Shown here: in pieces, positions 21,083 through 34,674 of the stretch
Position numbering within the stretch: position 1 is the stretch's first letter
Layout: each line of letters opens with the position of its first letter
From: Candidatus Omnitrophota bacterium
Lineage (GTDB): Bacteria > Omnitrophota > Gorgyraeia > Gygaellales > Profunditerraquicolaceae
Reading direction: 5' to 3'
Assembly: GCA_035402765.1 (NCBI GenBank)
Contig: DAONDX010000002.1
Span: 65,173 to 129,172 of the forward strand
Length of the DNA: 64,000 nucleotides
Notes under the pieces: generated by a model
Database searches by the model: none
Told to the model about the DNA's origin: nothing
What the model saw: only the letters and a program-made list of their open reading frames with translations
Position numbers and translations under genes: made by a program

Positions 21083-21086
21083 TGAT

Positions 21087-21881: not shown

Positions 21882-22112
21882 CGCAGTTGCGACGTAAGTT
21901 GTAGCCCGCCAGGTTTTATTGGCGGACGTCCGCGAATTTATCCCGCCGAAATACCAAAACTCTAGAGAGTTTTGGTATTGCTTCTGAGGCGGGACCTTCC
22001 CTATTTGTTATTTAGCGGGCTCTACCACTGTCCCCGCCGTTCCACCGATAATCAAATTTAAAAATTTTACCATAACTTAAAATAAAAACGTCCCTTAGTA
22101 ATTATTAAGATT
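21882..22112 (-). promoter_or_regulatory. Long structured leader / intergenic region upstream of the nucleoside phosphorylase gene
   Basis: 230 bp with no credible ORF. Contains perfect palindrome CCAAAACTCTAGAGAGTTTTGG. Hairpin CAACTTACGgagcaacgcagttgcgaCGTAAGTTG. GC-rich paired segments (CCCGCCAGG...CGGACGTCCGCG). Confidence 0.3.
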
Positions 22113-22182
22113 TTTGCGGGTGGCTTGGGTGTTTTCGCAGCGCGTCAGCGCTAGAAAATACCCAAGACAGGCCCCGCAAAAA
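22113..22182. repeat. Structured intergenic repeat, copy 2
   Basis: GATTTTTGCGGGTGGCTTGGGTGTTTTC-gcagcgcgtcagcgctag-GAAAATACCCAAGACAGGCCCCGCAAAAATC. Outer 12-bp arms are perfect reverse complements. Confidence 0.8.
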
Positions 22183-22184
22183 TC

Positions 22185-23096: not shown

Positions 23097-23527
23097 TAAT
23101 GCTCCGTGCTCTTTAGTATACGCTGGGTCATCTCTTGTTCATACATCGCCTTGATCCTAAAAAATTCTTTACGGCCAAGCTCTTTGACGATGGATTTCTC
23201 AATTGCCCGCAGCTTAACATCCAGAAAAATAAACTCGGTATTTTTCCTTAAACCTTGGCACTTTAGATCCGAACAAGCCTTTTCTTTAACGGCAATATAA
23301 GCCTGAAAATCACCTACCATCTTCTCAAGCTGGGCTTTTTCATGCGGCAGATACGCGCCCATCAGCTCATTTTTAATTTCCCTTAAGATATCTTGATCAA
23401 TGTCAACTTGGGTAAACTTGCGTTCAAACTTATCAAACGCCTCTTTGGTGGTTTTGTACAGCCAGATAAGATAACGTTTCTTTAGGTTCTTAATATCCTG
23501 ATTATCCATATTTACCTCCTTGCCCAC
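23096..23527 (-). CDS. Hypothetical cytoplasmic protein
   Basis: 143 aa ORF, charged/helical. No recognisable motif. Start overlaps the stop of the upstream gene. Confidence 0.35.
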   Translation of the reverse strand: MGKEVNMDNQDIKNLKKRYLIWLYKTTKEAFDKFERKFTQVDIDQDILREIKNELMGAYLPHEKAQLEKMVGDFQAYIAVKEKACSDLKCQGLRKNTEFIFLDVKLRAIEKSIVKELGRKEFFRIKAMYEQEMTQRILKSTEH

Positions 23528-23602: not shown

Positions 23603-24214
23603 TTATTTCTTTACCAATTCCACCGTATCAAAATAAAGGGTACCTTTGGTTCCGGGAAGCGGCTCAAATTGAAACATCCTGATCGGAAAATCCATTACTC
23701 CGTTTTGATCGGCATCCTGCGGCTGCCAATCATCACGCACGATGAATTTATCAAAACTAACCACTACTTTTTTCCAGCCGGCAAAATCGTCATCGGCGAT
23801 AAACCGCCAAATCTCACCCCCGGTATCTTTGATATCAAAAGCGATCTTAGCTTTTGAATTTGTCCCGTAGACATAAAAAGATACCGCGCTGTATTCTTCC
23901 CATTTGATATCGGAAGGCTTGACCGCCCAGTTAGCATTCTTGGCATCTAACCCGGCGCCGCGGGCAATATACATATAACCACCGCTGACCGCATCATAAT
24001 CAACCTTCAAAGCCTGTTTACCGCTATTTTTAATATCGCTGGCTCCGATCACCTGGATACTTGAACCATTGCCGGCGCCAAAATCCACGGTGCCGTCAGC
24101 GCCGCCGGAAACCACAATTTCAAAATCATCAAGCAAGACATTGCTCTCGGCTGCCCAACCGGCGCCCGAGATTAATAAAACTAAAGCTGCAGTTAAAAAT
24201 CCTGTTTTTTTCAT
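23603..24214 (-). CDS. Secreted protein of unknown function
   Basis: 203 aa. Clear signal peptide (MKKTGFLTAALVLLISGAGWA). Beta-rich composition. Confidence 0.45.
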   Translation of the reverse strand: MKKTGFLTAALVLLISGAGWAAESNVLLDDFEIVVSGGADGTVDFGAGNGSSIQVIGASDIKNSGKQALKVDYDAVSGGYMYIARGAGLDAKNANWAVKPSDIKWEEYSAVSFYVYGTNSKAKIAFDIKDTGGEIWRFIADDDFAGWKKVVVSFDKFIVRDDWQPQDADQNGVMDFPIRMFQFEPLPGTKGTLYFDTVELVKK

Positions 24215-24264: not shown

Positions 24265-25071
24265 TTATTTTCCCGGATGCTGCTGTTTATAAGGTATCAC
24301 CGGAGCAACCCAGGGCGTTTGCTGGTTAATTACCGCGATCTCTAAAGGGCAGACATTAGCCGGGACGGTTAAAGCAAAACGCACCGCGTCTTCAATGGCC
24401 TGCGTGCTCATCAAACGCGAGGTATCCGTACTGATATTCTGAAGTTTACCGGTTAAGTCCGTATCGGTAACCCCGGGTAATATCGAAGTAACTTTAATCC
24501 CGTGGTCGCGCAATTCCCAAAACAAACCCTTGGAAAATGCCCTTAAGCCTACCTTAAGCGAGCTGTAAACGATAAAGGTCCTGGGCAGCGGGTCACATAA
24601 GGTCGAACCGGAGACCATATTAATGATCGCTCCGCTTTTATTCTTGATCATATCATTAATCACCAGGCGGATCATCCGCACATAGCCCAAATAATTAGTA
24701 TGCGCTAATTTCTCGAAATCCTCGATCGGCTGATCCTGAAAAGGATATTGGCTGGATACCCCGGCATTATTGATCAGGATATCGATCTGGCCAAACTTCT
24801 CTTTGGCGCTTTTGACTAAATTTTCCAGATCTTCTAATTTTGTCACATCGCAAGCTACCGGCAAAACCTGGACTTTAAATTTTTTGGCGATCTCATCGGC
24901 AGTCTCTTTTAAAGGGCCCAGATTACGCGCCCCGATCACTAAATTAACCCCAAGACTGGCGGCGGTACAGGCCAAGGCTTTGCCAATTCCACGGCTGGCA
25001 CCGGTAACAATTGCTGTTTTTCCTTTTAATTCTAAACTCATACCTCTCCTCCTTATGTACGTACATAACAC
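24265..25071 (-). CDS. Short-chain dehydrogenase/reductase (candidate polyketide ketoreductase)
   Basis: 268 aa. TGASRGIG Rossmann motif, NNAG, catalytic YxxxK (YSSLK). First gene-distal member of the PKS operon. Confidence 0.85.
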   Translation of the reverse strand: MLCTYIRRRGMSLELKGKTAIVTGASRGIGKALACTAASLGVNLVIGARNLGPLKETADEIAKKFKVQVLPVACDVTKLEDLENLVKSAKEKFGQIDILINNAGVSSQYPFQDQPIEDFEKLAHTNYLGYVRMIRLVINDMIKNKSGAIINMVSGSTLCDPLPRTFIVYSSLKVGLRAFSKGLFWELRDHGIKVTSILPGVTDTDLTGKLQNISTDTSRLMSTQAIEDAVRFALTVPANVCPLEIAVINQQTPWVAPVIPYKQQHPGK

Positions 25072-25108
25072 CGGCGCAGATCAAATAGGCGCCGGGTGAC
25101 TCTACCAA

Positions 25109-26242
25109 TTAGCCCCGGGTGTATATTTTATTTCCGACTACCCGGCTAAACATTAATAAAATCAGCAGCCCCGAACCAAACACTAAAAATCCTAAACCAA
25201 AACTTTTCTGCATGATCAAACCGCCCAAGCTCACTCCTATGCCGCCGGCAATAAAACGCACGGCGCTGTTTAGGCTTGCGGCTTCATTGAGAAGCTCCGC
25301 CGGCAGATCCGTAAGCATAGTGGATAAACCCACATGATTAAAAGTCCAGCCCATGCCCCAAACAATCATCACGACAGCCAATAACCCCACCGGCAACTTG
25401 ATCAAGAGCAGAAAAACACAGACGATCATCGAAAGAATGCCTAAATTTACCACTTTTAACCGGCCCAGGGAATCTGCCAGATGGCCTCCCCAAACTTCCC
25501 CGAATATCCCGGCTAAGCTGGTCAGAGTGATCAGCATGCTGATTAAAAACTGGTTTAAATTTAATTGCGTCGAGAAATAAACTCCCAGCCATTGCTGCAC
25601 AGCATGATAAATCAAACTTATCAGGAAAATATAGCCGAAAATTTTAATGACTTTTTTATTTTTAAACGCCTCGAAATAACCCAGGCGGAAATTTCCGGCA
25701 TCCGCTTTAAAACTGGGCAAATAAAAATACATAAAAATCCAAAGTATAAATCCACAGAGCGCCGGAATGAGAAAAATCAACCTCCAGGAAATTATCCCGC
25801 TTAAAAACAGGCCCAATAAAGAAGCTATGAATGTCGAGCCAAAAAATAAACCAAGATAACGGCCGCGCTTAGCCGGCTTTAGGTGTTTGGCAATCACGAT
25901 CAAGCCCAGAGGAATAACCGAGGCTCCAAAAAATCCCATCATAAACCGGGCCGCAAAAAGCACAGAGATATTACCCGCTGCGGCTGCCAAAAGATTAGCC
26001 AGGGAAAACAAGAAGATGCAGAATAATTCAACCTTGCGGGCATCAAATAAGCGTACCAACGGACCATACAGCAGCGCCGCCAGCCCGTAAGGAAGCATAT
26101 ACAACCAGATAATTTTGCCGACCACAAATTGAGAAAGAGCAAAATCCGCGGCAATTGAAGGAACCAGCGCAGCAGAGGCTGCCACATTAAACGATAGAAC
26201 CGCTCCTTCTAAACAAAGGATAATAAAGGTAAGTGCGCTCAC
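25109..26242 (-). CDS. MFS transporter (candidate product exporter)
   Basis: 377 aa, ~12 predicted TM helices. MFS loop motif (LFDARKV). 4-bp overlap with the upstream aromatase/cyclase gene. Confidence 0.8.
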   Translation of the reverse strand: MSALTFIILCLEGAVLSFNVAASAALVPSIAADFALSQFVVGKIIWLYMLPYGLAALLYGPLVRLFDARKVELFCIFLFSLANLLAAAAGNISVLFAARFMMGFFGASVIPLGLIVIAKHLKPAKRGRYLGLFFGSTFIASLLGLFLSGIISWRLIFLIPALCGFILWIFMYFYLPSFKADAGNFRLGYFEAFKNKKVIKIFGYIFLISLIYHAVQQWLGVYFSTQLNLNQFLISMLITLTSLAGIFGEVWGGHLADSLGRLKVVNLGILSMIVCVFLLLIKLPVGLLAVVMIVWGMGWTFNHVGLSTMLTDLPAELLNEAASLNSAVRFIAGGIGVSLGGLIMQKSFGLGFLVFGSGLLILLMFSRVVGNKIYTRG

Positions 26243-26679
26243 TTAGCCGCTTCTTTTTCAATAATCGCTTTAAAGATCTTCAGGTTATGCTGCGAGCCTT
26301 CGTTAATAAAACCTTCGATCTGTTGGTCATTAAATTTGGCTTTGGCATCCATATGAAAATGCTGAATCCAAGTTAATTCAATGCCCCCGGTAACCGGCGT
26401 GTAGAGCCAAATAATCTTCATATACTCAAAAGGAAACAGCGGATCTTCACGCTGCGAATAAGTAAAAAACTTATCTTTAAACAAAAGCCTCCAGGATTGC
26501 CAGGTTTTATCATCCTCATCGGTTAGACGAAAAGTAATTTTATTCGCCTCTTTCTTGACCAGCTCGGCTTTTTTATATTCCGTGCCGAATAATTCCGTCC
26601 AGCGCGGGATATCATTGGAAATATCAAAAACTAAATCGTAAGGCGCCTTAATCACTATCGAATTACAGGTATGTCCCAT
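26239..26679 (-). CDS. Type II PKS aromatase/cyclase of the SRPBCC family (TcmN N-terminal / WhiE-ORFVI / ZhuI-like)
   Basis: Track ORF 26239-26886 trimmed to the internal start MGHTCNSIVIKAPYDLVFDISND (ATG 26679-26677), preceded by GGGGGGATTAA Shine-Dalgarno. Pattern NSIVI.AP.DLV.D..ND...W..LF.EY..AE......FRL..DED..W.SW......Y..W.Y....GG..L.W.Q.F.M is the ARO/CYC polyketide_cyc2 signature as I recall it. Confidence 0.7.
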   Translation of the reverse strand: MGHTCNSIVIKAPYDLVFDISNDIPRWTELFGTEYKKAELVKKEANKITFRLTDEDDKTWQSWRLLFKDKFFTYSQREDPLFPFEYMKIIWLYTPVTGGIELTWIQHFHMDAKAKFNDQQIEGFINEGSQHNLKIFKAIIEKEAAK

Positions 26680-26892
26680 TTTAATCCCCCCAGTATTTTG
26701 CTCTTTTAAAATTAGCTGTTTACGCGGGATGACTTGGCTTGATTCTGAGCGGGGCGTGGAGGCAAGGAGTGGGCATGGTTCCGTCACTTTTATGTCAGAG
26801 AGCGACGCCAGCCGACCCGAGCGAAGTTTTGCCACGCTGGGGTAAAACGAGCGCCCCCGCGAAGAACAAGACAAGACAGACCGCAATAATTA
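26680..26892 (-). promoter_or_regulatory. About 210-bp GC-rich structured intercistronic leader inside the PKS operon
   Basis: No conserved coding signal (the track's N-terminal extension MRSVLSCSSRGRS... is low-complexity). Several local hairpins (e.g. AGTTTTGCCacgctgGGGTAAAACg). GC content visibly above the flanking genes. Confidence 0.3.
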
Positions 26893-27693
26893 TTAATCTA
26901 AAAGAGCAACTACCCTTGCCCAAGCCGCTCCGGTATTTTTGATGCGGATAGGCATACAAAGCACCTTAAATCCAAAATCCGGCAAGCTTTCTAAATTTGC
27001 CAACCGCTCGATATGGATAAATTCTTTTTTTCTTCCGTAGAAATGCGCCGGATAAAATGTTTTAGGGTCTTTGGTCTTTAAGAATTCACTGAGCATAAAT
27101 CTGTAGGGCCGGTCAATCCCCATCGTATCTACGCCAAAGATCTTGACCCCCTGGCCTAATAAATATTCGATGGCGCAAGGGCTGACTCCGGGATAATCGG
27201 CAAAATATTTAGGGCCGCCGTATAACTTATCGGCTCCGGTCTGCAGTAATACGATATCTAAAGGTTTAAGCTGGTAATTGATCTTGGTTAAAGCTTCGCA
27301 AAGGTCCTGTTCCTTGATTACTTCATTTGGTTTTTTATGCCGCAGGTCTAATTTTACTCCGGGCTGATAACAATATTCCAGGGGTATCTCATCGGCGGTT
27401 TTAGAGGCGCGATTTTCAGATTGAGAACCGTAATGGAAGGAATAATCCAGGTGCGTACCGATGTGCACCGGAGCATGGACAATCTCCAAAGAGAGAAATT
27501 CTTCATCGGGCAGCTCTTCTTTTTTCACGATGCGGCCGCCCAATGCGTATTTAATCTTGCCCAAAAGAGTTTTGCCCATGATTACCCGGTTAAACTTTTC
27601 TACCCCGGCTTTATGGGTTACTCTTTCGATAGCCACTTTGTGTACCTCAAAAGCGGTCTCATCAATGGGTAAGCTTAAATCTACTATCTTCAC
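26893..27693 (-). CDS. Cyclase-family protein (PF04199, kynurenine-formamidase fold)
   Basis: 266 aa. Diagnostic HxGTHxDxxxH motif (VHIGTHLDYSFH). Confidence 0.7.
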   Translation of the reverse strand: MKIVDLSLPIDETAFEVHKVAIERVTHKAGVEKFNRVIMGKTLLGKIKYALGGRIVKKEELPDEEFLSLEIVHAPVHIGTHLDYSFHYGSQSENRASKTADEIPLEYCYQPGVKLDLRHKKPNEVIKEQDLCEALTKINYQLKPLDIVLLQTGADKLYGGPKYFADYPGVSPCAIEYLLGQGVKIFGVDTMGIDRPYRFMLSEFLKTKDPKTFYPAHFYGRKKEFIHIERLANLESLPDFGFKVLCMPIRIKNTGAAWARVVALLD

Positions 27694-27761
27694 CCCGCAC
27701 CTTCTCCTTTTTTTATGCTACCCCCTACCTTCTAATATTTAAATTATAGAAGGTGCGGGGT

Positions 27762-27998
27762 TCATTTTGCTAATTTGCTCTCAATATTAGCGGTGATATC
27801 ATTAATTGTGGAATTTTTGGTAATCTCTTTAGGGCTCAGCTTGACCCCGAAAGATTTCTCTAAAGCAATTACCGATTCCACCATCTCCGTAGAATCTACG
27901 CCGATACTGTCGATCAGAGTAGAACCATCTTTTAATTCCTCGATCTTTACTTTTAAGAGGTTGCTTAACACTTCTTTTACTTTTGTTTTTGTATCCAT
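27762..27998 (-). CDS. Acyl carrier protein
   Basis: 78 aa, acidic. Phosphopantetheine-attachment DS motif in GVDSTEMVESVIALE. Confidence 0.8.
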   Translation of the reverse strand: MDTKTKVKEVLSNLLKVKIEELKDGSTLIDSIGVDSTEMVESVIALEKSFGVKLSPKEITKNSTINDITANIESKLAK

Positions 27999-28012
27999 CT
28001 ATCCTCCAACAT

Positions 28013-28090
28013 TATTATTTACGGGTGGCTTGGGTGTTTTCGTAGCGCGTCAGCGCAAGAAAATACCCAAGACAGGACCCGTAAATTTTA
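28013..28090. repeat. Structured intergenic repeat, copy 3
   Basis: TTATTTACGGGTGGCTTGGGTGTTTTC-gtagcgcgtcagcgcaag-GAAAATACCCAAGACAGGACCCGTAAATT. Outer arm TTTACGGG/CCCGTAAA carries G>A and C>T changes that preserve pairing relative to copies 1 and 2. Confidence 0.8.
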
Positions 28091-29548
28091 TATCTGTACT
28101 TCCCCTTTAGTCGCCGCCGCTTCCCACTTATTCAATCCGTCAATAACATCTTGAATACAAAGCTTGGCCAGCGGATCAAAATCGCTTTCCATGATCCGGT
28201 TGATCCGGCCGGGCTTTGAGAAAAATTCACGCATACACCAGGAACCTAAACGGCCCAGGTCTTCGGTGGTCAAATGATCCGTAGGGATTACCGGATGCAG
28301 AAAATCCCAAGTGCTAAAATCAACTTTTTTCGGATCAATCCACCCCTTCTTTAAAGCAATCCTCCACATCGGTGAATTGGGAGCCGGAGTGACATAACCT
28401 ACCCACAGGATATCCGGGTCCACCATGTCGGTGAACTCAAAACGCTGTTTGACGATCTCTTCGGTATCGTAATCAAACCCCATCATAATATCGGCAACAA
28501 TAGCAATATCATTTTTACGCAAGATCTCGATAGTCTTCTTAATCTGCTCGATGGTTGTGCCTTTAGCGATTCTTTTGAGCTCAGATTGTGTCGTTACTTC
28601 AATTCCAAAAACTCCCATAAACAGGCCTGCCTCTTTCATCAGCGGCAGAATTGATTCACAGTTAACCCAATCCACAGCCCTGCCTAAAGCCACCCATTTC
28701 GTTTCGATCTTTTTAGCCAACTTTAATTCACAGAACTTTTTAACCCTGGCAGCATCAACAATGAAATTATCATCCTGGATTACCACTACCTTGACTTTGT
28801 ATTTATTCTGCAAAAGTTCCAGCTCCTCAATTACCCGCTCCGGGCTTTTAGCGCGCCATTTTAAAAAATCTGACGGAGAACGCGGGTCAAATTGATCCCA
28901 TTCATAACAAAAAGTACAGGCCGAAGGACAACCCCGGGAGGTAACCATATCGACAAACGGCTTCCAATAAGTATGCCCGGAATATTTATCCATGGGGAAC
29001 AAGTCATAGGCCGGTAAAGGAAGCTTATCCAAATCTGTCATCAAGGGCTTATGCGGCCCCATCACGATCTGCCCATTAATGCGCGAGGTGACTCCGCCGA
29101 CATCTTTGAGCGGTTTATTTTTATCGATCGCTTCAATTAAATCCCCAAAAGATTCCTCTTCCCCCATCACGATAAAATCAACTTCCGGAATTTCTTCTAA
29201 GGTCGGAATGGGCATGGCGGAATACCAAAGCCCGCCCAAAATGATCTTTATTTTAGGCAGCGCTTTTTTAATTCCGATCGCCGCATCTTTAAAATGACGC
29301 AAAACTCCGTATCCGCCGTAGCCGTGCAGCTGCTCACCCATCACCACAATATCAGGGTTTATATTTTTTACCTGTTGGATCAGCTGCTCCATGGGTATCT
29401 GTTCGGCTTTAGCGTCGATTACCGCTACATCTTTATAACCTTTCTCCCGGATATAAGCAGCCCAATGCGCATATAACTGATTCGGAGACCGGTGAATTCC
29501 ATGCGTGGCCCAGGCGCCGACTTTAGGCATCACAAATAGTATTTTCAT
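28088..29548 (-). CDS. Class B (cobalamin-binding) radical SAM enzyme
   Basis: 486 aa. N-terminal B12-binding Rossmann-like domain (MKILFVMPKVGAWATHG...). Radical SAM CxxxCxxC (RGCPSACTFCYE). Confidence 0.85.
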   Translation of the reverse strand: MKILFVMPKVGAWATHGIHRSPNQLYAHWAAYIREKGYKDVAVIDAKAEQIPMEQLIQQVKNINPDIVVMGEQLHGYGGYGVLRHFKDAAIGIKKALPKIKIILGGLWYSAMPIPTLEEIPEVDFIVMGEEESFGDLIEAIDKNKPLKDVGGVTSRINGQIVMGPHKPLMTDLDKLPLPAYDLFPMDKYSGHTYWKPFVDMVTSRGCPSACTFCYEWDQFDPRSPSDFLKWRAKSPERVIEELELLQNKYKVKVVVIQDDNFIVDAARVKKFCELKLAKKIETKWVALGRAVDWVNCESILPLMKEAGLFMGVFGIEVTTQSELKRIAKGTTIEQIKKTIEILRKNDIAIVADIMMGFDYDTEEIVKQRFEFTDMVDPDILWVGYVTPAPNSPMWRIALKKGWIDPKKVDFSTWDFLHPVIPTDHLTTEDLGRLGSWCMREFFSKPGRINRIMESDFDPLAKLCIQDVIDGLNKWEAAATKGEVQI

Positions 29549-29583
29549 TTAAAACCCTCCATTAGTTTAAAATATAATTAGCT

Positions 29584-30816
29584 TTAAGCTGCTTTTTCAA
29601 CTACGAGCACGGAATTAATTCCGCCGCGGCCGCGTGAAATAATTAAAGATTTGTTTACCTTATATTCTTTGGCCTCGCCAGCCACATAATTTAAGCTGTT
29701 TTGAGCCGGCTTTTCTAAATTTAATGTCGGAGCAACTAAACTATGTTCCATGGTTAAAAGCGCAATGATCATATCTAAGGCGCCGGAAGCGCCCAGTAAA
29801 TTCCCAAACATCGACTTTGGACAGCTGGCCGGGATTTTCTTCAAGTTTTTGCCAAAGACTAACTCCAGGGCTTTTACCTCGGAATTATCCCAAAGTTCAA
29901 CTGCCAAGCCGTCTAAACTAATGTAACCGATCTCCTCAGGCAACGCTTTAGCATCATCCAGGGCCATTTTAATTGCCCGGGCTAATTCTTTTCCGTCGCT
30001 GGCGCAATTAATCCGATCTACTCCGTCACAGGCAGTACCATAGCCGGAAATTAACCCTAAAATGTTGGCGTTACGGCTCCGGGCGCGCTGAATACTCTCC
30101 ATCACTACGATCCCGGCGCCTTCACCGATTACAAAACCGTTGCGCTCCCGGTCAAAGGGCCGATAAGCTCCGGCCGGATCATGATTATTTTTAGAAAGCG
30201 CCCCGTAAGTATTACAACACAATAAAGCATACGGAGAAACCGGCGCTTCCATCCCTCCGCCTAAGATCATATTAAGTTTATTCTTCGCTAAAACTTTTCG
30301 GGCATAACCCAGCGCCATAAGCGAACTGGCCCGGTCACTGACCACGGTCTTGCTGAAACCTTTAATCCCGTAATAAATTGAAACCTGGCCTTGGGGAGCC
30401 GCCGGGAACCAGGCGCTGGCCATATAAGGCGAAACACCTTCCCGGCCTTCCAGGTATAAATCCCTTAATTCCGTCTCAGCGTAAAGCCAGCCGCCGATAG
30501 CATTACCTAAAAAAATCCCCACCAGATTCGGATCTTCGTTCTTGATATCGATCCCGGCATCCTGCAGCGCTAACTCCGCGGCCACCAGCGCCATATGCGA
30601 AAATGCGTCAATTTTCTTAAGCAGTCTTTCGGAGATGTGGCTATACTTTTCTAAATCATCTATTTGGCCGGCAATATGAGAAGGATAAAGGCTGGCATCA
30701 AAACGCCTGATCTCTTTAATAAAAGAACGGCCGCTTTTAATGTTGGCCCAAAACTGCCGCTTACCGATTCCCGACGGGCTGACTACGCCGATACCTGTAA
30801 TTGCAATCTTTTCCAT
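29584..30816 (-). CDS. Ketosynthase-beta / chain-length-factor-like protein (KS fold, catalytic triad absent)
   Basis: Start reassigned to MEKIAITGIGVVSPSG: ATG 30816-30814 overlaps KS-alpha stop as TAATG. Thiolase/KS fold throughout. Active-site Cys position reads VVSDRASSL (no Cys, no Gln). Both His positions replaced (YISLDGLAV; MFGNLLGASG). Confidence 0.75.
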   Translation of the reverse strand: MEKIAITGIGVVSPSGIGKRQFWANIKSGRSFIKEIRRFDASLYPSHIAGQIDDLEKYSHISERLLKKIDAFSHMALVAAELALQDAGIDIKNEDPNLVGIFLGNAIGGWLYAETELRDLYLEGREGVSPYMASAWFPAAPQGQVSIYYGIKGFSKTVVSDRASSLMALGYARKVLAKNKLNMILGGGMEAPVSPYALLCCNTYGALSKNNHDPAGAYRPFDRERNGFVIGEGAGIVVMESIQRARSRNANILGLISGYGTACDGVDRINCASDGKELARAIKMALDDAKALPEEIGYISLDGLAVELWDNSEVKALELVFGKNLKKIPASCPKSMFGNLLGASGALDMIIALLTMEHSLVAPTLNLEKPAQNSLNYVAGEAKEYKVNKSLIISRGRGGINSVLVVEKAA

Positions 30817-32096
30817 TATCCACCAAACCTTTTTAAAATAAGGGAAGAGTGTATCCCTGAAAAACCGCTGCTGGTTTTTAAAATAATATCGACCTTTTTT
30901 TGAATGGCCTGATTGGGAATATAATACAGATCGCACTGGGGGTCTTTTTCCTCCTGGTTGATCGTCGGAGGAAGAATATTTTTTTCAAAAATCAGACTAG
31001 CCATCGTCAGCTCAATGGCATTGGCCGCCGCCAGAGGATGGCCGATCATGGATTTAAAAGAACTGATCGGCAGCTTATAGGCATATTGGCCAAAAATTGT
31101 TTTATAAGCGCTGGTTTCAAAAATATCATTCATTTTCGTGCTTGAGCCGTGCGCATTAATATAATCAATTTCCGATGGTTTAACCTGGGCATCTTTTAAA
31201 GCCAAACTAATGCAAATTTCCATGGCCCGGCCGTCAGAAGGCAAATCCGTCATATGAAAAGCATTGCAGCTGGTGCCAAAACCTAAAACCTCGCAGTAAA
31301 TCGGAGCATTGCGTTTTAAGGCGTGATTTAATTCTTCCAGCACCAGAAGCCCGGCCCCTTCCCCTAAAACAAAACCATCCCTTTTATTATCAAAGGGCCG
31401 GGAGGCTTTTTGCGGTTCGTCATTATGCACGGATAAAACATTGACCACATCAAAAGCCCCGAAGGTAATCGGAGTAAGCGGGGCTTCCGCAGCACCGCAA
31501 ATCATTACATCCATCTCCGCATCCTGAATGCTCTCTAAACCAAAACCTAAAGAATCGGTACCGGCGGTACATCCGGTCGAAATAGTATTACAGTTTCCTT
31601 TTAATCCATAACGGGCGCTTAACTCAATGGAAGGAGTATTAAACATCGCCGCGTCATAAAGATCCGGGCGCACCAAAGCCGGGTTAATCGGCCGCTTGCC
31701 GTCATCGGTAACCAAAGCAAATTCTTCCTCCATATATTTTGTCCCGCAGATAGCATTAGCCAAACAAACACCCACCCGCGTTACATCTTCTTTCGAAAAA
31801 TCCAGCTGACTGTCTTCTATCGCCATTTTTCCGGCGGCTACGCCAAACTGCACGTAACGGTCCATGCGCATAGCCTCTTCATGAGTTAGACCCAATTTAA
31901 AAGGATCAAAATCCCTGACCTCGGCGGCAATCTTAGTATTAAAAACCGAAACATCAAAACCATCCACTAAACGGATCCCGGATTTACCGCTGGAAAAACC
32001 TTCCCAGGCATTCTTTTTCCCGATACCGTTGGGGGAAATTACTCCCACACCGGTAATGACTACTCTACGTTTAACCACTTTTGTTATTCCTTTCAT
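30816..32096 (-). CDS. Ketosynthase-alpha (FabF/KAS II-like, intact Cys-His-His)
   Basis: 426 aa. Active-site Cys (TISTGCTAGTDSLG). His pair (YINAHGSST; KSMIGHPLAAA). N-terminal RVVITGVGVISPNG. Confidence 0.85.
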   Translation of the reverse strand: MKGITKVVKRRVVITGVGVISPNGIGKKNAWEGFSSGKSGIRLVDGFDVSVFNTKIAAEVRDFDPFKLGLTHEEAMRMDRYVQFGVAAGKMAIEDSQLDFSKEDVTRVGVCLANAICGTKYMEEEFALVTDDGKRPINPALVRPDLYDAAMFNTPSIELSARYGLKGNCNTISTGCTAGTDSLGFGLESIQDAEMDVMICGAAEAPLTPITFGAFDVVNVLSVHNDEPQKASRPFDNKRDGFVLGEGAGLLVLEELNHALKRNAPIYCEVLGFGTSCNAFHMTDLPSDGRAMEICISLALKDAQVKPSEIDYINAHGSSTKMNDIFETSAYKTIFGQYAYKLPISSFKSMIGHPLAAANAIELTMASLIFEKNILPPTINQEEKDPQCDLYYIPNQAIQKKVDIILKTSSGFSGIHSSLILKRFGG

Positions 32097-32151
32097 TATT
32101 ACCTAAAACGGAATTCTTTTTTGCCAAGACGCAAGATTTTGCGTCTCTACG

Positions 32152-32745
32152 TTATGTTTGGTTCTTTCGCGTAATCTTGAAAACAATATTTCCCCCGTCC
32201 GGACAGGTAACTGTATCAATCGTATCCGGATCAGGCATAAAGAAAAATTTAGCGCCGAAATTTAAAGCAAATAAAGCCGGAAAAGCGGTATGAAATGCCG
32301 CTCCGCAAAACCCCGGGATACATTTCAACCCTTGAGTTTCCCATTTGTCCCCTACTTTATACCCAAAAGAACATTTGCCTTTTGATTGCACTACCTCCAG
32401 GATCATTTTCTTGGGGCGGGGGCCTTGATACTCCGGATCGCGCGGGATAACTTCCAGTTTGCCGTCTTTATCCAAAATTTCAACTTTAAACTCCAGTTTG
32501 CCGCCGTCAGGACAAGTAGTCAATAACGAACGCTGATTATCGCGAAACCCGAATTTGGCGCCGAAACTTAAAGCATAAATGGTGGGAAATAAAGCATGCG
32601 CCAGGCCTAAACAAAAGTGTTTTGGCGCATGTGTAAAATCCTCCAGAATAATCACATCCCCGGCTTTATACCCGTGGTAACAGACCCCCAGAACCTGGGT
32701 CACGGTAAGTTTAAGCTTCGGGAAAGGTGTTTTTACTTCATCCAT
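32152..32745 (-). CDS. Tandem-duplicated Cys-containing domain protein of unknown function
   Basis: 197 aa of two ~95-aa repeats sharing C..GYK.GD, C.G.A..FP...AL.FGAKF.F and TCPDGG.(L/I).FK(V/I) blocks. No catalytic motif I can name. Confidence 0.5.
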   Translation of the reverse strand: MDEVKTPFPKLKLTVTQVLGVCYHGYKAGDVIILEDFTHAPKHFCLGLAHALFPTIYALSFGAKFGFRDNQRSLLTTCPDGGKLEFKVEILDKDGKLEVIPRDPEYQGPRPKKMILEVVQSKGKCSFGYKVGDKWETQGLKCIPGFCGAAFHTAFPALFALNFGAKFFFMPDPDTIDTVTCPDGGNIVFKITRKNQT

Positions 32746-32746
32746 G

Positions 32747-33751
32747 TTAAACCAGCTCCTTAGTTCTGTGGATAAGATCTTCTTTGCTAAAAAATTTATG
32801 GCTAACCTCTACTTGATGCACCATCTCTACTAAAGTTTTATTCAGGGGCGCGGTAAGATTATTTTCTTCGGCCAAACGCACAAATTCTCCGTTAATATAA
32901 TCAATCTCTGAAAGTTTACCGCGCAGGATACTCTGCAATATCGAGCCATATAACGGGTCCTTGCTTAAATTTCTCATCATCCCCGAGAAAATCTCAGCGG
33001 CATGAGCGCTGGGCAGGCTGGTAAATTTAGTGAGGTTTTCGATCGGAAATCCGGGGAGAGAAACTAAATCTATCCCGATTTTATCAAATATCTCAAAAGC
33101 CTCTTTCCAAATAGCGATACTGATCCGGCTAACGGTTAAATCTCCGAAAACATCCTGTATGCTTCTGCCCAGAATTGCCGGCAGACAATTGTTAGCATTA
33201 ACAAAGATCTTTAAATATTTCATCCCCCGCATATTTTGGCTGATGATCGCCGGGAAAGCCTTATCCAAAACCAAGCTTAAATCGAGCAGCCCTTGAGTAG
33301 GGTTAGGGTTAAAAATGCTTCCCACAATCCAGCTGCCCTCGAAATTATGCACCACTATGCCGGGTTCCAAATTAGTCGCCCCGAACATGATAATACTTGA
33401 GATAATTTGCTCAACCGGTAAATATTTGGCGGCGATCTTATCTGCCTGCACACCGTTTTGCGTAGTGAGCAATAAAGAATTCTGGATTAAATGGCGGCTG
33501 GCCGATAAAGCTGAATCAATATCCTGTGTTTTAGTCGTTAAAATTACTAAATCCGGAGCGTAGTGTAATTTATCGGAGATCTCCACATGCACCGTTTGAT
33601 TCCCCCGGACTCCGGAGATGACCAGCCCCTGCCGGCTGATCACTTCAACCCCCGGACCGCGGCCGACTAAAGTTACCTCTTCGCCTTGCTTTTTAAGGTA
33701 ACCAGCAACTAAACAACCTATAGCCCCGGGGCCGATAACTGCAATACGCAT
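32747..33751 (-). CDS. ApbA/PanE-family 2-dehydropantoate-2-reductase-like NAD(P)H oxidoreductase
   Basis: 334 aa. N-terminal Rossmann MRIAVIGPGAIGCLVAGYL. ApbA_C-type C-terminal domain. Confidence 0.75.
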   Translation of the reverse strand: MRIAVIGPGAIGCLVAGYLKKQGEEVTLVGRGPGVEVISRQGLVISGVRGNQTVHVEISDKLHYAPDLVILTTKTQDIDSALSASRHLIQNSLLLTTQNGVQADKIAAKYLPVEQIISSIIMFGATNLEPGIVVHNFEGSWIVGSIFNPNPTQGLLDLSLVLDKAFPAIISQNMRGMKYLKIFVNANNCLPAILGRSIQDVFGDLTVSRISIAIWKEAFEIFDKIGIDLVSLPGFPIENLTKFTSLPSAHAAEIFSGMMRNLSKDPLYGSILQSILRGKLSEIDYINGEFVRLAEENNLTAPLNKTLVEMVHQVEVSHKFFSKEDLIHRTKELV

Positions 33752-34020
33752 TATGGTTTAACGTTTTTTGGAAAACCGTACTTTTTATAATCAAACCCGT
33801 TTTGTCCCAACAGGCGCACCATCATACTGTAAAAAGGCGAGGGCACATCGGAAAAAAAAGCCGCTACCACATCCTGGTCGCTGACTCCGGTAGAGGAGCG
33901 TTTAGCAGCAAGCTCTTCGGCTCGGCGGCGGACTACTGATTCCGTAATTCTCCGGTGGAATACCGGGATCTTGGAAATTAATACTTTAAATTTATTTTCT
34001 GTTTCCGTTTCCCAAAACAT
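33751..34020 (-). CDS. Small hypothetical protein (first ORF of the PKS operon)
   Basis: 89 aa. 1-bp overlap with the reductase gene. Faint resemblance to stand-alone PCP_red-like small domains (KIP.F.RR...E..A...G); not reliable. Confidence 0.3.
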   Translation of the reverse strand: MFWETETENKFKVLISKIPVFHRRITESVVRRRAEELAAKRSSTGVSDQDVVAAFFSDVPSPFYSMMVRLLGQNGFDYKKYGFPKNVKP

Positions 34021-34055
34021 AGTGGTTGGCTAAAATTAGCTGCGTTGGCCTTCTT

Positions 34056-34081
34056 TTATATAGTAAAATTTTACTATATAA
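34056..34081. promoter_or_regulatory. Perfect 26-bp palindrome, candidate PadR operator in the PKS operon promoter
   Basis: TTATATAGTAAAATTTTACTATATAA, perfect dyad. 36 bp upstream of the first operon ORF (start 34020) and 78 bp downstream of the PadR stop. AT-rich promoter-like context. Confidence 0.45.
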
Positions 34082-34158
34082 TTTTAGTTAAGCTGGCTGC
34101 CTTTGTCAAGATAATTAATCTAATTTTAGAAATTTCAAAACCGGATTGTAGAATAAAG

Positions 34159-34674
34159 TTATATTTTTTTAAGGAGCGCGCTCAAGAAAGCAGATTCTGC
34201 TTTCAGCAGGCAAAGATTATGCTCCATTATCCGCCGTAAGGGCAGGGAATTTTCCAGTTCTTTAGAATCGCACATTTTCTTTAATCCGGAGGAAATTTTG
34301 TCCAGGATTTCTGACCTTTTCTTGAGCCGGCGGCAAGCTAAAGCCGGTTGAGCAAAACCCAGGAAAAATAAACTTAAATCCAGATTGAACTGCGGGCGTT
34401 TAAAATCCAAAAGATTTTTATTGAGCAGCATCTCAAAACGCGCTTTACCCCGGGGGGTAAGACAATAAACCAGCCTCGCCGGCCGCTTGCTTTTTTTTAC
34501 TATCTGCTTGGTAAGGAAACCTTTTTTTTCTAAAATTCTTAGAGGATAATATATGGATTTTAATTGCACGCCGGCAAATAAAGAAAGGATTTCGCGTACT
34601 TTGACTTTAATTTCATAACCATGCTTAGGCCCCTGGCGCAGGAGGCCTAAAAGAATCAGTTCCTGATCAATCAT
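34159..34674 (-). CDS. PadR-family transcriptional regulator
   Basis: 171 aa. N-terminal winged HTH LILLGLLRQGPKHGYEIKVKVREI...IYYPLRILEKKGFL. 4-bp overlap with accA stop. Confidence 0.7.
   Translation of the reverse strand: MIDQELILLGLLRQGPKHGYEIKVKVREILSLFAGVQLKSIYYPLRILEKKGFLTKQIVKKSKRPARLVYCLTPRGKARFEMLLNKNLLDFKRPQFNLDLSLFFLGFAQPALACRRLKKRSEILDKISSGLKKMCDSKELENSLPLRRIMEHNLCLLKAESAFLSALLKKI

What the first reader, a model, noticed from the sequence alone, without database searches (positions are those of the whole stretch)
24265..34674. Complete type II (aromatic) polyketide synthase operon in a non-actinobacterial, apparently uncultivated diderm genome
Eleven co-directional, tightly packed or overlapping genes form the operon. 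Running from SDR (24265) to PadR (34674), they are:
- SDR ketoreductase
- MFS exporter
- TcmN-type aromatase/cyclase
- PF04199 cyclase
- ACP
- class-B B12 radical SAM enzyme
- KS-beta/CLF without catalytic triad
- KS-alpha with Cys-His-His
- tandem-duplicated Cys protein
- ApbA-family reductase
- small ORF

This is the canonical minimal PKS (KS-alpha/CLF/ACP) plus ARO/CYC and KR, the hallmark of aromatic polyketide pathways. Those are classically actinomycete; outside Actinobacteria they are rare and mostly uncharacterised. The radical SAM enzyme, the second cyclase and the duplicated Cys protein have no counterpart in textbook clusters, so the product is probably new chemistry.
Basis: partly seen in the sequence, partly recalled or inferred. 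Interest (0 to 1): 0.9.

Follow-up and report, generated by a model that had tools for sequence, protein, structure and literature searches.

The report
Conserved anaerobic type II polyketide operon
This is a real type II (aromatic) polyketide synthase operon in an uncultivated Omnitrophota bacterium; it is kept almost unchanged in hundreds of species of that phylum, has oxygen-independent helper enzymes, and stays linked to a nucleoside-salvage gene set, so it looks more like core physiology than an occasional antibiotic cluster.

Summary

**Type II PKS identity**
- KS-alpha (Cys-His-His) sits in the type II PKS KS-alpha clade, apart from FabF in 100/100 bootstraps.
- The CLF groups with Streptomyces, Priestia and Azospirillum CLFs (99/100).
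- The SRPBCC protein matches TcmN ARO/CYC (E=3e-24) and keeps Tyr35, Arg69 and Arg82.

- The SDR is not an ActIII-type C9 ketoreductase.
- The PF04199 cyclase does have counterparts in type II PKS clusters (44% identity to one in Priestia).
- PadR and the MFS gene are variable.
- The conserved unit is larger, roughly 16103-34109. It adds a LigW-like decarboxylase and a module of phosphorylase, MtnA-like isomerase, aldolase-SCP2, aldehyde dehydrogenase and acyl-CoA ligase.

**New findings**
- The signature B12 radical SAM gene occurs in 401 stretches of species-representative genomes; the best 80 are all Omnitrophota.
- The core genes are as conserved as AccA or more.
- No oxygenase is present.
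- A conserved operator palindrome precedes the operon.

The product is unknown. Omnitrophica KS-CLF pairs were already catalogued in 2023. I rate this a new variant of a known kind.

The parts
34081..34109 (-). Promoter-like site, TTGACA-17-TAAAAT (11 of 12 matches), in the PadR/small-ORF gap
   Evidence: It is the best consensus match in 19000-36000. The scan as a whole is not enriched over shuffles, so its position is the argument.
34057..34080 (.). 24-bp perfect palindrome TATATAGTAAAATTTTACTATATA directly after the -10 hexamer; a likely operator
   Evidence: Sequence read. The core ATAGTAAAATTTTACTAT, or at least its 16-nt centre TAGTAAAATTTTACTA, lies within 200 nt upstream of the small ORF in about 47 of 59 related loci, with or without an adjacent PadR.
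34159..34674 (-). PadR-family regulator; a variable neighbour
   Evidence: PF03551, E=1e-13. It is adjacent in 11 of 30 fully flanked loci. One locus (L007) has MarR+MMPL instead.
33751..34020 (-). 89-aa protein with weak DUF2621/PCP_red similarity; first gene of the conserved block
   Evidence: below cut-offs. The ortholog in L009 hits DUF2621. It is present in all 30 fully flanked loci.
32747..33751 (-). ApbA/PanE-family NAD(P)H oxidoreductase
   Evidence: PF02558 plus PF08546; TIGR00745 at 168 bits, above the 141 cut-off. Conserved in the block.
32152..32745 (-). Tandem TIGR04076 protein with 7 invariant Cys and 4 invariant His; function unknown
30816..32096 (-). KS-alpha (Cys176-His316-His353)
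29584..30816 (-). Chain-length factor (KS-beta), with Arg at the Cys/Gln161 position
   Evidence: Arg in 84 and Lys in 3 of 94 family loci; 7 gave no match to the search motif.
28088..29548 (-). B12-binding radical SAM enzyme, BchE/HpnJ-like
   Evidence: BchE 216 bits against a cut-off of 481; HpnJ 157. The most conserved gene of the cluster.
27762..27998 (-). Acyl carrier protein
   Evidence: PF00550, E=4e-10; GVDS motif.
26893..27693 (-). PF04199 metal-dependent cyclase
   Evidence: 44% identity to the cyclase of the Priestia type II PKS cluster.
26239..26676 (-). Monodomain TcmN-type aromatase/cyclase (146 aa from the internal Met)
25109..26242 (-). MFS exporter; present or absent among relatives
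   Evidence: Present in 19 of 30 fully flanked loci and absent from the contigs that carry P0007.
24265..25071 (-). Classical SDR reductase, not of the ActIII C9-KR clade
   Evidence: Median 84% identity among relatives.
23603..24214 (-). Secreted CBM11-like protein (signal peptide); a variable insert
23096..23527 (-). 143-aa helical protein of unknown function; usually present
22185..23096 (-). Amidohydro_2 enzyme, closest to non-oxidative aromatic-acid decarboxylases
   Evidence: LigW E=6e-29, ACMSD, gamma-resorcylate decarboxylase. Follows the PKS genes in all 30 fully flanked loci and in the divergent versions.
21087..21881 (-). Nucleoside phosphorylase (PNP_UDP_1)
   Evidence: It lies 16 nt upstream of the small ORF in L009.
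20088..21002 (-). MtnA-type sugar-1-phosphate isomerase
   Evidence: TIGR00524 at 210 bits, above the 186 cut-off.
19092..20087 (-). Class II aldolase fused to a C-terminal SCP2 domain
   Evidence: The fusion is kept in L007, L009 and L095.
17605..19092 (-). Aldehyde dehydrogenase
16103..17605 (-). AMP-forming acyl-CoA/ACP ligase
   Evidence: Linked to the cluster in L009, L011, L076, L087, L094-L097 and L114.
28012..28099 (-). Intergenic hairpin element, copy 3 (rSAM/ACP gap)
22107..22194 (-). Intergenic hairpin element, copy 2 (Amidohydro_2/PNP gap)
21007..21094 (-). Intergenic hairpin element, copy 1 (PNP/MtnA gap)

Best explanation
An Omnitrophota chromosomal operon encodes a type II polyketide synthase that most likely builds an aromatic, multi-ring polyketide without any oxygen-dependent step.

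**Shown**
- A KS-alpha/CLF heterodimer pair and a dedicated ACP.
- A TcmN-type ARO/CYC with intact catalytic residues.
- A PF04199 cyclase of the kind found in another Gram-positive type II PKS cluster.

**Inferred pathway**
1. The ACP is malonylated by the housekeeping FabD and activated by a PPTase encoded elsewhere.
2. KS/CLF makes an unreduced poly-beta-keto chain. Its length is unknown; octa- to decaketide is my guess.
3. The ARO/CYC closes the first ring(s) in TcmN fashion.
4. The PF04199 enzyme closes a further ring and/or releases the chain.
5. The LigW-like Amidohydro_2 enzyme removes the terminal aromatic carboxylate.
6. The SDR and the ApbA-like reductase reduce carbonyls.
7. The BchE/HpnJ-like B12 radical SAM enzyme does what oxygenases do in aerobic clusters (methylene-to-carbonyl oxidation or hydroxylation with water), or else a C-methylation. 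The TIGR04076 Cys/His protein and the small DUF2621-like protein would be its helpers.
8. The product leaves through the MFS pump where one is present.

The operon starts at its own promoter, guarded by a conserved palindromic operator.

The always-linked module (phosphorylase, MtnA-like isomerase, aldolase-SCP2, aldehyde dehydrogenase, ligase) most likely turns the radical SAM by-product 5'-deoxyadenosine into DHAP plus an acyl thioester. That would remove an inhibitor and perhaps supply the starter unit, since the CLF lacks the Gln used for decarboxylative priming.
For: **Type II PKS identity**
-.
- Phylogeny with bootstraps.
- Named neighbours include a representative (P0148) whose cluster holds a Streptomyces glaucescens protein named by UniRef as putative tetracenomycin C beta-ketoacyl synthase 1, and Laceyella 'minimal PKS ketosynthase'.
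- The nearest plasmid hits are type II PKS clusters.

**ARO/CYC:**; residue roles from PMC9014085.

**Cyclase:**. In Photorhabdus, KR AntA, aromatase AntH and cyclase AntC act in this order (PMC6601290).

**Decarboxylase-like enzyme:**

**No oxygenase:** no oxygenase domain appears in any ORF of 120 aa or more between 389 and 63988. The Azospirillum cluster, by contrast, carries four ABM monooxygenases.

**Conservation and vertical inheritance**
- 401 stretches in species-representative genomes.
- Identical gene order in 30/30 fully flanked loci.
- In 12 matched loci, median identity to the window is rSAM 88%, SDR 85%, KS-alpha 83%, CLF 81%, against AccA 80%.
- Host GC ranges from 32% to 62%.

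**Linkage of the five-gene module:** it survives rearrangement, lying downstream in the window's lineage, upstream in L095-L097 and L114, and split in L009.

**DHAP-shunt enzymology:** PMC10986504 and PMC6079011.

**Promoter and operator:**
Against: - No product, transcript or enzyme activity was observed; everything beyond domain identity is inference.
- The SDR is not a recognised polyketide KR.
- The CLF gate residues (Trp/Ala/Leu at act positions 109/112/116; read by eye against the act CLF alignment) give no clear chain length.
- The rSAM is far below the BchE and HpnJ cut-offs and has no close solved relative. Its reaction is a guess, and plain C-methylation is equally possible.
- TIGR04076 has no fold or function assignment.
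- The phosphorylase is closer to uridine/purine phosphorylases than to MTAP, so the nucleoside substrate is uncertain.
- The SCP2 fusion on the aldolase is not explained by simple 5-deoxyribulose-1-phosphate cleavage.
- Linkage of the salvage-like module could be inherited synteny within one phylum.
- The tree is neighbour-joining on 101 sequences, without aryl-polyene references.
Confidence: 0.75

Rival explanations
1. The five downstream genes (phosphorylase, MtnA-like isomerase, aldolase-SCP2, aldehyde dehydrogenase, ligase) are an independent housekeeping salvage operon. They merely sit next to the PKS genes by inherited synteny, and the polyketide pathway ends at the Amidohydro_2 gene.
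For: - The three central enzymes match the known DHAP shunt for MTA and 5'-deoxyadenosine.
- A 303-nt gap with a strong hairpin separates Amidohydro_2 from the phosphorylase gene in the window.
- Nearly all loci examined are labelled Omnitrophota (a few carry other labels), so shared ancestry can keep neighbours together.
Against: - Upstream neighbours vary (AccA/PadR, MarR/MMPL, others), while this module stays attached in 30/30 loci.
- It remains attached after being moved to the other side of the PKS genes in divergent lineages (KS-alpha 70-71% identity, GC up to 62%).
- In L009 the phosphorylase gene lies 16 nt upstream of the first PKS-block gene.
- The aldolase carries a conserved SCP2 domain that, as far as I know, the described DHAP-shunt aldolases lack.
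Confidence: 0.35
2. The radical SAM enzyme attaches a 5'-deoxyadenosyl group to a hydrophobic intermediate, as MqnE and HpnH do. The phosphorylase, isomerase, SCP2-aldolase, aldehyde dehydrogenase and ligase then trim that adduct to a two-carbon acid side chain. On this reading the 'salvage' genes are biosynthetic steps acting on the polyketide itself.
For: - The phosphorylase has weak similarity to HpnG and futalosine hydrolase, both of which process adenosyl adducts.
- The rSAM's second-best family is hopanoid HpnJ.
- The SCP2 domain on the aldolase suggests a lipophilic substrate.
- The module is tightly linked to the cluster.
Against: - From my own knowledge, known adenosylating radical SAM enzymes are not B12-binding class B enzymes.
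- The similarity to HpnG and MqnB is far below cut-offs, and uridine/purine phosphorylase models score higher.
- No precedent in polyketide pathways was found in the literature searched.
Confidence: 0.1
3. The genes make a specialised lipid rather than an aromatic polyketide: a ladderane-like, polyene or otherwise modified fatty acid. This is what an antiSMASH 'ladderane' call on KS plus B12 radical SAM would suggest.
For: - Ladderane-type clusters have been reported by antiSMASH in Omnitrophota MAGs (PMC9902471).
- The rSAM has a weak hit to the lipid-associated TIGR04072 model.
- The CLF's best PDB hits by score are FabF enzymes.
Against: - TIGR04072 scores 73 bits against a cut-off of 360.
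- KS-alpha is separated from FabF in 100/100 bootstraps, and the CLF groups with CLFs.
- The polyene-type ketosynthase Iga11 scores much lower than act KS.
- A TcmN-type ARO/CYC with its catalytic residues, a type II PKS-type cyclase and an aromatic-acid-decarboxylase-like enzyme are present.
- No dehydratase or enoyl reductase is present.
Confidence: 0.05
4. It is an ordinary, horizontally acquired antibiotic cluster of the accessory genome.
For: - An MFS exporter and a PadR regulator are typical of antibiotic clusters.
- One 1.6-3.3 Mb contig carrying the cluster is labelled Thermodesulfobacteriota by its source, and one homologue is labelled Pseudomonadota. This could mean transfer.
Against: - GC content matches the surroundings.
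- Flanks are housekeeping genes in conserved order.
- 401 stretches in species-representative genomes carry the signature gene.
- Core genes are as conserved as AccA.
- MFS and PadR are the variable parts, not the core.
Confidence: 0.1

Closest known systems
Photorhabdus anthraquinone (ant) type II PKS, AntA-I
   Same: A type II PKS in a Gram-negative bacterium. KS-alpha scores nearly as high against AntD as against actinorhodin KS (367 vs 370 bits) and shares their insertion relative to FabF. The enzyme logic of aromatase plus separate cyclase is the same (PMC6601290).
   Different: There is no AntI-type lyase, no PPTase or CoA-ligase helper pair, and no ActIII/AntA-type C9 ketoreductase. Quinone formation in Photorhabdus is by spontaneous oxidation with O2. 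Here the host lineage is reported from anoxic habitats (abstract of PMC8542988) and a B12 radical SAM enzyme is present instead.
Tetracenomycin / WhiE-type systems with a monodomain ARO/CYC (TcmN, WhiE-ORFVI)
   Same: The ARO/CYC is the same kind (E=3e-24 and 6e-21). It keeps Tyr35, Arg69 and Arg82, plus pocket residues W28, F32, E34, W65, S67, M91, W95, W108, Q110 and N136. This implies cyclisation of an unreduced chain.
   Different: The host is Omnitrophota, not an actinomycete. There is no TcmI/TcmJ-type cyclase and no oxygenases or O-methyltransferases. The CLF has Arg, not Gln.
Plasmid-borne type II PKS clusters of Priestia/Bacillus and Azospirillum (uncharacterised)
   Same: They are among the nearest annotated KS-alpha relatives (46-48% identity). 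Their CLFs also carry Arg at the active-site position. Priestia has a 44%-identical PF04199 cyclase and a similar monodomain SRPBCC protein.
   Different: Those clusters carry cupins, SAM methyltransferases, an alpha/beta hydrolase or four ABM monooxygenases, and a PPTase. None has the B12 radical SAM, TIGR04076, ApbA or Amidohydro_2 genes or the nucleoside module.
BchE (anaerobic Mg-protoporphyrin IX monomethyl ester cyclase) and HpnJ, B12-binding radical SAM enzymes
   Same: They are the best-scoring curated families for the rSAM, over almost its full length (216 and 157 bits). From my own knowledge, both perform oxygen-independent transformations other than simple methylation.
   Different: The scores are far below the family cut-offs (481 and 578), so this enzyme is not an equivalog. 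The genomic context is a PKS, not tetrapyrrole or hopanoid genes.
DHAP shunt for 5'-deoxyadenosine / MTA (MtnP or MtnK, MtnA, Ald2)
   Same: The order of activities is the same: phosphorylase, sugar-1-phosphate isomerase, class II aldolase.
   Different: The aldolase is fused to SCP2. The module is extended by an aldehyde dehydrogenase and an acyl-CoA ligase. The phosphorylase is not MTAP-like. The whole module is embedded in a PKS operon.
Catalogue entry: Candidatus Omnitrophica KS-CLF pairs in McBride et al. 2023 (PMC10132072)
   Same: The same phylum is listed among 14 phyla with curated KS-CLF pairs, so the bare existence of such pairs is already on record.
   Different: The catalogue's text, searched for 'Omnitrophica' and 'radical SAM', names the phylum only once, in its list of phyla, and never mentions radical SAM. 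So it gives no account of the cluster's content, its conservation across the phylum, or its anaerobic accessory set.

Membership tests
Type II (aromatic) polyketide synthase | KS-alpha with the Cys-His-His catalytic triad | tested here: met
   Cys176, His316 and His353, in alignment with act KS, AntD and FabF.
Type II (aromatic) polyketide synthase | An adjacent paralogous CLF that lacks the active-site Cys | tested here: met
   33% identical to KS-alpha. It has Arg/Asp/Asn at the triad columns and a 1-nt stop/start overlap with KS-alpha.
Type II (aromatic) polyketide synthase | KS-alpha and CLF fall in the type II PKS clades rather than with FabF/FabB | tested here: met
   NJ tree of 101 sequences. 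The KS-alpha clade excludes FabF in 100/100 bootstraps and the CLF clade is supported in 99/100. Aryl-polyene references were not included; the polyene-type Iga11 scores 245 bits against 370 for act KS.
Type II (aromatic) polyketide synthase | A discrete ACP encoded in the cluster | tested here: met
   78 aa, PF00550, GVDS motif.
Type II (aromatic) polyketide synthase | A dedicated aromatase/cyclase of the SRPBCC type with catalytic residues | tested here: met
   TcmN E=3e-24. Tyr35, Arg69 and Arg82 are conserved in the window and in 8 orthologues.
Type II (aromatic) polyketide synthase | CLF Gln161 for decarboxylative acetate priming (classical acetate-primed systems) | tested here: not met
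   Arg in the window. Arg in 84 and Lys in 3 of 94 family loci; 7 gave no match to the search motif. This is a feature of the classical subgroup, not of the family as a whole.
Type II (aromatic) polyketide synthase | An aromatic polycyclic product | not testable with these tools
   This needs expression and chemistry.
ActIII-type C9 ketoreductase | Close similarity to polyketide C9 KRs | tested here: not met
   About 30% identity to the Streptomyces and Azospirillum KRs, which are 56% identical to each other. The window SDR is closer to E. coli FabG by score.
BchE anaerobic cyclase (TIGR02026) | Score above the curated equivalog cut-off | tested here: not met
   216 bits against a cut-off of 481.
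Ladderane/lipid-associated B12 radical SAM (TIGR04072) | Score above the curated cut-off | tested here: not met
   73 bits against a cut-off of 360.
Class B (B12-binding) radical SAM superfamily | An N-terminal B12-binding domain plus a CxxxCxxC radical SAM core | tested here: met
   PF02310 and PF04055; C207-PSA-C211-TF-C214, invariant in 14 homologues.
TIGR04076 family | Score above the curated cut-off | tested here: met
   96.6 bits against a cut-off of 33, as two repeats.
DHAP shunt (MtnP/MtnA/Ald2) | Adjacent genes for a phosphorylase, an MtnA-type isomerase and a class II aldolase | tested here: met
   PF01048. TIGR00524 at 210 bits, above the 186 cut-off. PF00596.
DHAP shunt (MtnP/MtnA/Ald2) | Activity on 5'-deoxyadenosine- or MTA-derived substrates | not testable with these tools
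   The phosphorylase scores higher against uridine/purine phosphorylase models than against MTAP.

The most novel reading that the evidence does not exclude
The operon is a core trait of much of the Omnitrophota phylum. It makes an aromatic polyketide entirely without oxygen for a physiological job, such as a soluble or membrane redox carrier, rather than as an occasional antibiotic. A BchE-like B12 radical SAM enzyme stands in for oxygenases. A dedicated branch (phosphorylase, isomerase, SCP2-aldolase, aldehyde dehydrogenase, ligase) recycles the enzyme's own 5'-deoxyadenosine by-product, or an adenosylated intermediate, into the acyl starter for a CLF that cannot prime by decarboxylation. 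That would be a self-feeding coupling of radical SAM chemistry and polyketide assembly, which I have not seen described.
Probability: 0.2. Interest if true: 0.9.

Novelty: new variant of a known kind. Interest (0 to 1): 0.7.

Why it matters
Type II PKSs are studied almost entirely in aerobic actinomycetes, where ring oxidation and tailoring depend on O2.

Here the same assembly machinery sits in an uncultivated, mostly anaerobic candidate phylum. It is conserved as strongly as acetyl-CoA carboxylase across hundreds of species and carries only oxygen-independent partner enzymes.

Three consequences follow:
- It offers a testable route to anaerobic aromatic polyketide tailoring. The rSAM, TIGR04076 and LigW-like enzymes all lack a known role in polyketide chemistry.
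- It suggests a physiological function for a polyketide in Omnitrophota.
- It gives a first functional context for the orphan TIGR04076 family and for an SCP2-fused DHAP-shunt-type aldolase.

It also gives natural-product mining a compact operon of about 12 kb (core) to 18 kb (full), with a defined promoter and operator, for heterologous expression.

Tried and rejected
- **Literature.** Searches for TIGR04076, for type II PKS with B12 radical SAM, and for polyketides in Omnitrophota found nothing specific to this cluster.
- **Chain length from CLF gate residues.** Trp/Ala/Leu at act positions 109/112/116 do not map onto the known octa-, deca- or dodecaketide patterns (read by eye against the act CLF alignment).
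- **Solved-structure relatives of the rSAM.** Only distant hits were found (AprD4 9e-13, TokK, OxsB).
- **The intergenic hairpins as a known RNA.** There was no Rfam match at E<=0.1.
- **Housekeeping FabF pair.** Considered and rejected on phylogeny and on the ARO/CYC.
- **Ladderane-type lipid cluster.** Considered and rejected because the model score is far below cut-off and there is no DH or ER.
- **SDR as C9-KR.** Rejected.
- **Sister groups outside Omnitrophota.** The nearest 50%-cluster representatives are unnamed metagenomic proteins whose contigs could not be looked up. Among 80 metagenome loci, the eight other KS-CLF loci lacked every accessory gene.

Full report
**1. Observation**

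The region 24265-34674 holds twelve ORFs, all on the minus strand, so transcription runs from PadR toward the SDR.
- PadR, 34159-34674.
- An 89-aa ORF, 33751-34020, with weak DUF2621/PCP_red similarity.
- An ApbA/PanE-type reductase, 32747-33751.
- A tandem TIGR04076 protein, 32152-32745.
- KS-alpha, 30816-32096.
- The CLF. The ORF begins at 30936, but the conserved start is Met41 at 30816, overlapping the KS-alpha stop by one base.
- A B12-binding radical SAM enzyme, 28088-29548.
- An ACP, 27762-27998.
- A PF04199 cyclase, 26893-27693.
- An SRPBCC protein. The ORF runs to 26886; orthologues are 128-146 aa, which points to the Met at 26676.
- An MFS transporter, 25109-26242.
- An SDR, 24265-25071.

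GC content is flat across the region. The flanks are housekeeping genes: accA, an L,D-transpeptidase, leuS, mnmE, purH and others. LptE, MurJ and a BamD-like gene fit a diderm. Homologues of KS-alpha, the rSAM and the TIGR04076 protein at 71-93% identity that carry a source name come almost all from Candidatus Omnitrophota/Omnitrophica MAGs.

**2. Is it a type II PKS?**

KS-alpha has Cys176/His316/His353. The CLF has Arg/Asp/Asn at the same columns and is 33% identical to KS-alpha.

Against the PDB, KS-alpha scores highest with actinorhodin KS (370 bits) and Photorhabdus AntD (367). FabF enzymes follow at 354 bits or less, and the polyene-type Iga11 reaches only 245. KS-alpha shares with act KS and AntD a five-residue segment that FabF lacks.

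I searched 1.84 billion cluster representatives. I then built a neighbour-joining tree of the 84 single-domain representatives, four Omnitrophota homologues, and references taken from PDB alignments, E. coli K-12 and three annotated plasmid clusters. The results were:
- The window's KS-alpha lies in a clade with act KS, a Streptomyces KS-alpha, AntD, the Priestia and Azospirillum type II PKS ketosynthases, and a representative (P0148) whose cluster holds a Streptomyces glaucescens protein that UniRef names putative tetracenomycin C beta-ketoacyl synthase 1.
- That clade excludes E. coli and B. subtilis FabF in 100 of 100 bootstraps.
- The four CLFs are monophyletic in 99 of 100.

The SRPBCC protein matches TcmN ARO/CYC (E=3e-24) and WhiE-ORFVI (6e-21). 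With a careful alignment it keeps Tyr35, Arg69 and Arg82, the residues that mediate cyclisation/aromatisation in TcmN (PMC9014085), together with most pocket residues.

The PF04199 protein has the HxGTHxDxxxH motif. It is 44% identical (E=5e-90) to the 'cyclase family protein' of the Priestia type II PKS cluster.

**3. Corrections**

- The SDR is about 30% identical to ActIII-type ketoreductases. Those are 56% identical to each other across Streptomyces and Azospirillum, and the window SDR scores higher with E. coli FabG. It is a tailoring reductase of unknown specificity. With a TcmN-type monodomain ARO/CYC, the chain is more likely unreduced.
- The CLF carries Arg where act CLF has Gln161. 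Of 94 family loci, 84 have Arg and 3 have Lys; 7 gave no match to the search motif. Priestia and Azospirillum CLFs also have Arg.
- No PPTase or malonyl transferase is encoded anywhere in the window. This is usual for type II PKS clusters.

**4. Distribution and conservation**

A scan of one genome per GTDB species, using an alignment of the rSAM, found 401 stretches encoding a relative. The best 80 (84-94% identity) all come from Omnitrophota MAGs, some under placeholder 'Planctomycetales' or other labels.

I ran tblastn of 25 window proteins against 85 related loci. In the 12 loci that contain all genes, median identity to the window is:

| Gene | Median identity |
|---|---|
| rSAM | 88% |
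| SDR | 85% |
| KS-alpha | 83% |
| TIGR04076 | 82% |
| CLF | 81% |
| AccA | 80% |
| PF04199 cyclase | 79% |
| ARO/CYC | 76% |
| MtnA-like | 73% |
| ApbA | 61% |
| PadR | 60% |

In all 30 loci with full 10-kb flanks the order is: small ORF, ApbA, TIGR04076, KS, CLF, rSAM, ACP, cyclase, ARO/CYC, (MFS in 19), SDR, (CBM11-like), (orf143), Amidohydro_2, phosphorylase, MtnA-like, aldolase, then often aldehyde dehydrogenase and ligase. In two of the 30 (L009/L010) the rSAM sits after the SDR and the phosphorylase and ligase sit upstream. Upstream neighbours vary: AccA/PadR in 11 loci, MarR plus an MMPL transporter in L007.

A metagenome scan seeded with the nearest non-family ketosynthases recovered more divergent versions, with KS-alpha 65-71% identical and GC from 43% to 62%. 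These keep the PKS genes, the rSAM, ApbA and Amidohydro_2. They also keep the five-gene module, but in four of them (L095-L097, L114) it lies upstream of the PKS genes. In Candidatus Susulua the module is split across the cluster, with the phosphorylase 16 nt from the first PKS-block gene.

Eight unrelated KS-CLF loci in the same scan had none of these accessory genes.

**5. The extended unit**

Amidohydro_2 (22185-23096) is closest to non-oxidative aromatic-acid decarboxylases: LigW at 6e-29, then ACMSD, gamma-resorcylate decarboxylase and 2,3-dihydroxybenzoate decarboxylase. That fits removal of the terminal carboxylate of an aromatic polyketide.

The five-gene module comprises:
- a phosphorylase (21087-21881);
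- an MtnA-type isomerase (20088-21002; TIGR00524 above cut-off);
- a class II aldolase (19092-20087);
- an aldehyde dehydrogenase (17605-19092);
- an AMP-forming ligase (16103-17605).

The genes are tightly packed or overlapping. The first three reproduce the DHAP shunt, which converts 5'-deoxyadenosine or MTA to DHAP plus an aldehyde (PMC10986504; PMC6079011). The last two would carry the aldehyde on to an acyl thioester.

The aldolase carries a C-terminal SCP2 domain in the window and in three divergent lineages. The simple salvage reading does not explain this.

**6. Regulation and RNA features**

The best sigma-70-like match in 19000-36000 is TTGACA-17-TAAAAT at 34109-34081, in the gap between PadR and the small ORF. 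It is followed at once by a 24-bp perfect palindrome at 34080-34057. The core ATAGTAAAATTTTACTAT, or at least its 16-nt centre TAGTAAAATTTTACTA, lies upstream of the small ORF in about 47 of 59 related loci, whether or not PadR is adjacent. The operon thus has its own conserved operator.

Three copies of a roughly 65-nt hairpin occur only in this operon within the 64-kb window. They fold at -34 to -46 kcal/mol, with z-scores of -5 to -7. They sit in the rSAM/ACP, Amidohydro_2/phosphorylase and phosphorylase/MtnA gaps. They recur at equivalent places in eight related loci and match no Rfam family.

**7. Mechanism**

Shown:
- A minimal type II PKS with a competent ARO/CYC and a type II PKS-type cyclase.
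- No oxygenase domain in any ORF of 120 aa or more in the window. The aerobic Azospirillum cluster, by contrast, has four ABM monooxygenases.

Inferred:
- An unreduced poly-beta-keto chain is cyclised in TcmN fashion.
- It is further cyclised or released by the PF04199 enzyme.
- It is decarboxylated by the LigW-like enzyme.
- It is reduced by the SDR and the ApbA-like enzyme.
- It is modified by the B12 radical SAM enzyme.

The rSAM's best curated relatives are BchE and HpnJ, not the methyltransferase families, but its scores are far below their cut-offs. I therefore hold oxygen-independent oxidation and C-methylation as about equally likely.

The TIGR04076 protein has 7 invariant Cys and 4 invariant His and is probably metal-binding, but its fold could not be assigned.

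I read the linked module as by-product removal, and possibly as starter supply to a CLF that lacks the priming Gln. The rival view that it is only a syntenic neighbour keeps substantial weight.

**8. Comparison and novelty**

Omnitrophica appears in the 2023 catalogue of KS-CLF pairs (PMC10132072). A search of that paper's text found no term for radical SAM and only a single mention of the phylum. The papers I searched on Omnitrophota and polyketides or on Candidatus Susulua say nothing on this cluster.

The assembly core belongs to a known family. Four things are new:
- the anaerobic accessory set;
- the Arg-type CLF;
- conservation across much of a phylum, at the level of a core gene;
- the persistent linkage to a DHAP-shunt-like module.

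I rate it a new variant of a known kind, with interest 0.7.

Noticed in passing
window 16103-21881: A five-gene module on the same strand, directly downstream of the PKS genes: nucleoside phosphorylase, MtnA-like isomerase, class II aldolase, aldehyde dehydrogenase and AMP-forming ligase. It resembles the DHAP shunt for 5'-deoxyadenosine/MTA, extended to an acyl thioester. It stays linked to the PKS genes even where it has moved to the other side of them (L095-L097, L114) or been split (L009).
   Followed up: partly
window 19092-20087; L007 17869-18873; L009 13385-14383; L095 3317-4315: The class II aldolase of that module carries a C-terminal SCP2 (lipid-binding) domain, conserved across divergent lineages. 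As far as I know this is not a feature of the described DHAP-shunt aldolases. It hints at a hydrophobic substrate.
   Followed up: partly
window 21007-21094, 22107-22194, 28012-28099: Three copies (81-86% identical to the reference copy) of a roughly 65-nt stable hairpin, all in intergenic gaps of this operon and nowhere else in the 64 kb. Their folding z-scores are -5 to -7. Similar copies occur at equivalent gaps in L012, L015, L027, L029, L042, L045 (three copies), L058 and L064. There is no Rfam match.
   Followed up: partly
window 34057-34080: A 24-bp perfect palindrome, TATATAGTAAAATTTTACTATATA, directly after a near-consensus promoter. Its core (at least the 16-nt centre TAGTAAAATTTTACTA) is conserved upstream of the first operon gene in about 47 of 59 related loci, including loci without an adjacent PadR.
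   Followed up: partly
window 26677-26892: About 216 nt lie between the cyclase gene and the conserved start of the ARO/CYC gene, where relatives have 14-22 nt. The ORF extends in frame through it from a TTG start, giving a low-complexity 69-aa N-terminal extension that called orthologues (128-146 aa) lack. It may be an insertion or a degenerate remnant.
   Followed up: no
window 25109-26242: The MFS transporter gene is present in 19 of 30 fully flanked relatives and absent from others that otherwise have the same order, such as the contigs carrying P0007. The exporter is therefore a dispensable or repeatedly lost part.
   Followed up: yes
window 23603-24214: A CBM11-like protein with a clear signal peptide (MKKTGFLTAALVLLISGAGWAAES) sits in the middle of an otherwise cytoplasmic biosynthetic operon. 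It is present in 17 of the 30 fully flanked relatives.
   Followed up: no
L095 6008-7516 and 17659-20279: A high-GC (62%) divergent version of the cluster has two B12 radical SAM genes. The second is followed by a 4Fe-4S dicluster protein (Fer4_22). A 148-aa ORF with weak Polyketide_cyc2 similarity lies next to the ApbA gene.
   Followed up: no
L007 (JGI contig of 1.6 Mb); protein P0335: An identical rSAM protein is recorded by NCBI under 'Thermodesulfobacteriota bacterium', on a contig of up to 3.3 Mb. The cluster there is flanked by MarR, an MMPL transporter and DUF1329/DUF1302 genes. This is either horizontal transfer out of Omnitrophota or a taxonomic label problem.
   Followed up: no
window 39184-39984 and 51087-52274, 15060-16091: The window holds three further radical SAM genes: a SPASM-domain enzyme, a lysine-2,3-aminomutase-like enzyme next to two D-Ala-D-Ala-ligase-like ATP-grasp genes, and RlmN. 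This is a radical-SAM-rich genome, and 5'-deoxyadenosine disposal would matter in it.
   Followed up: no
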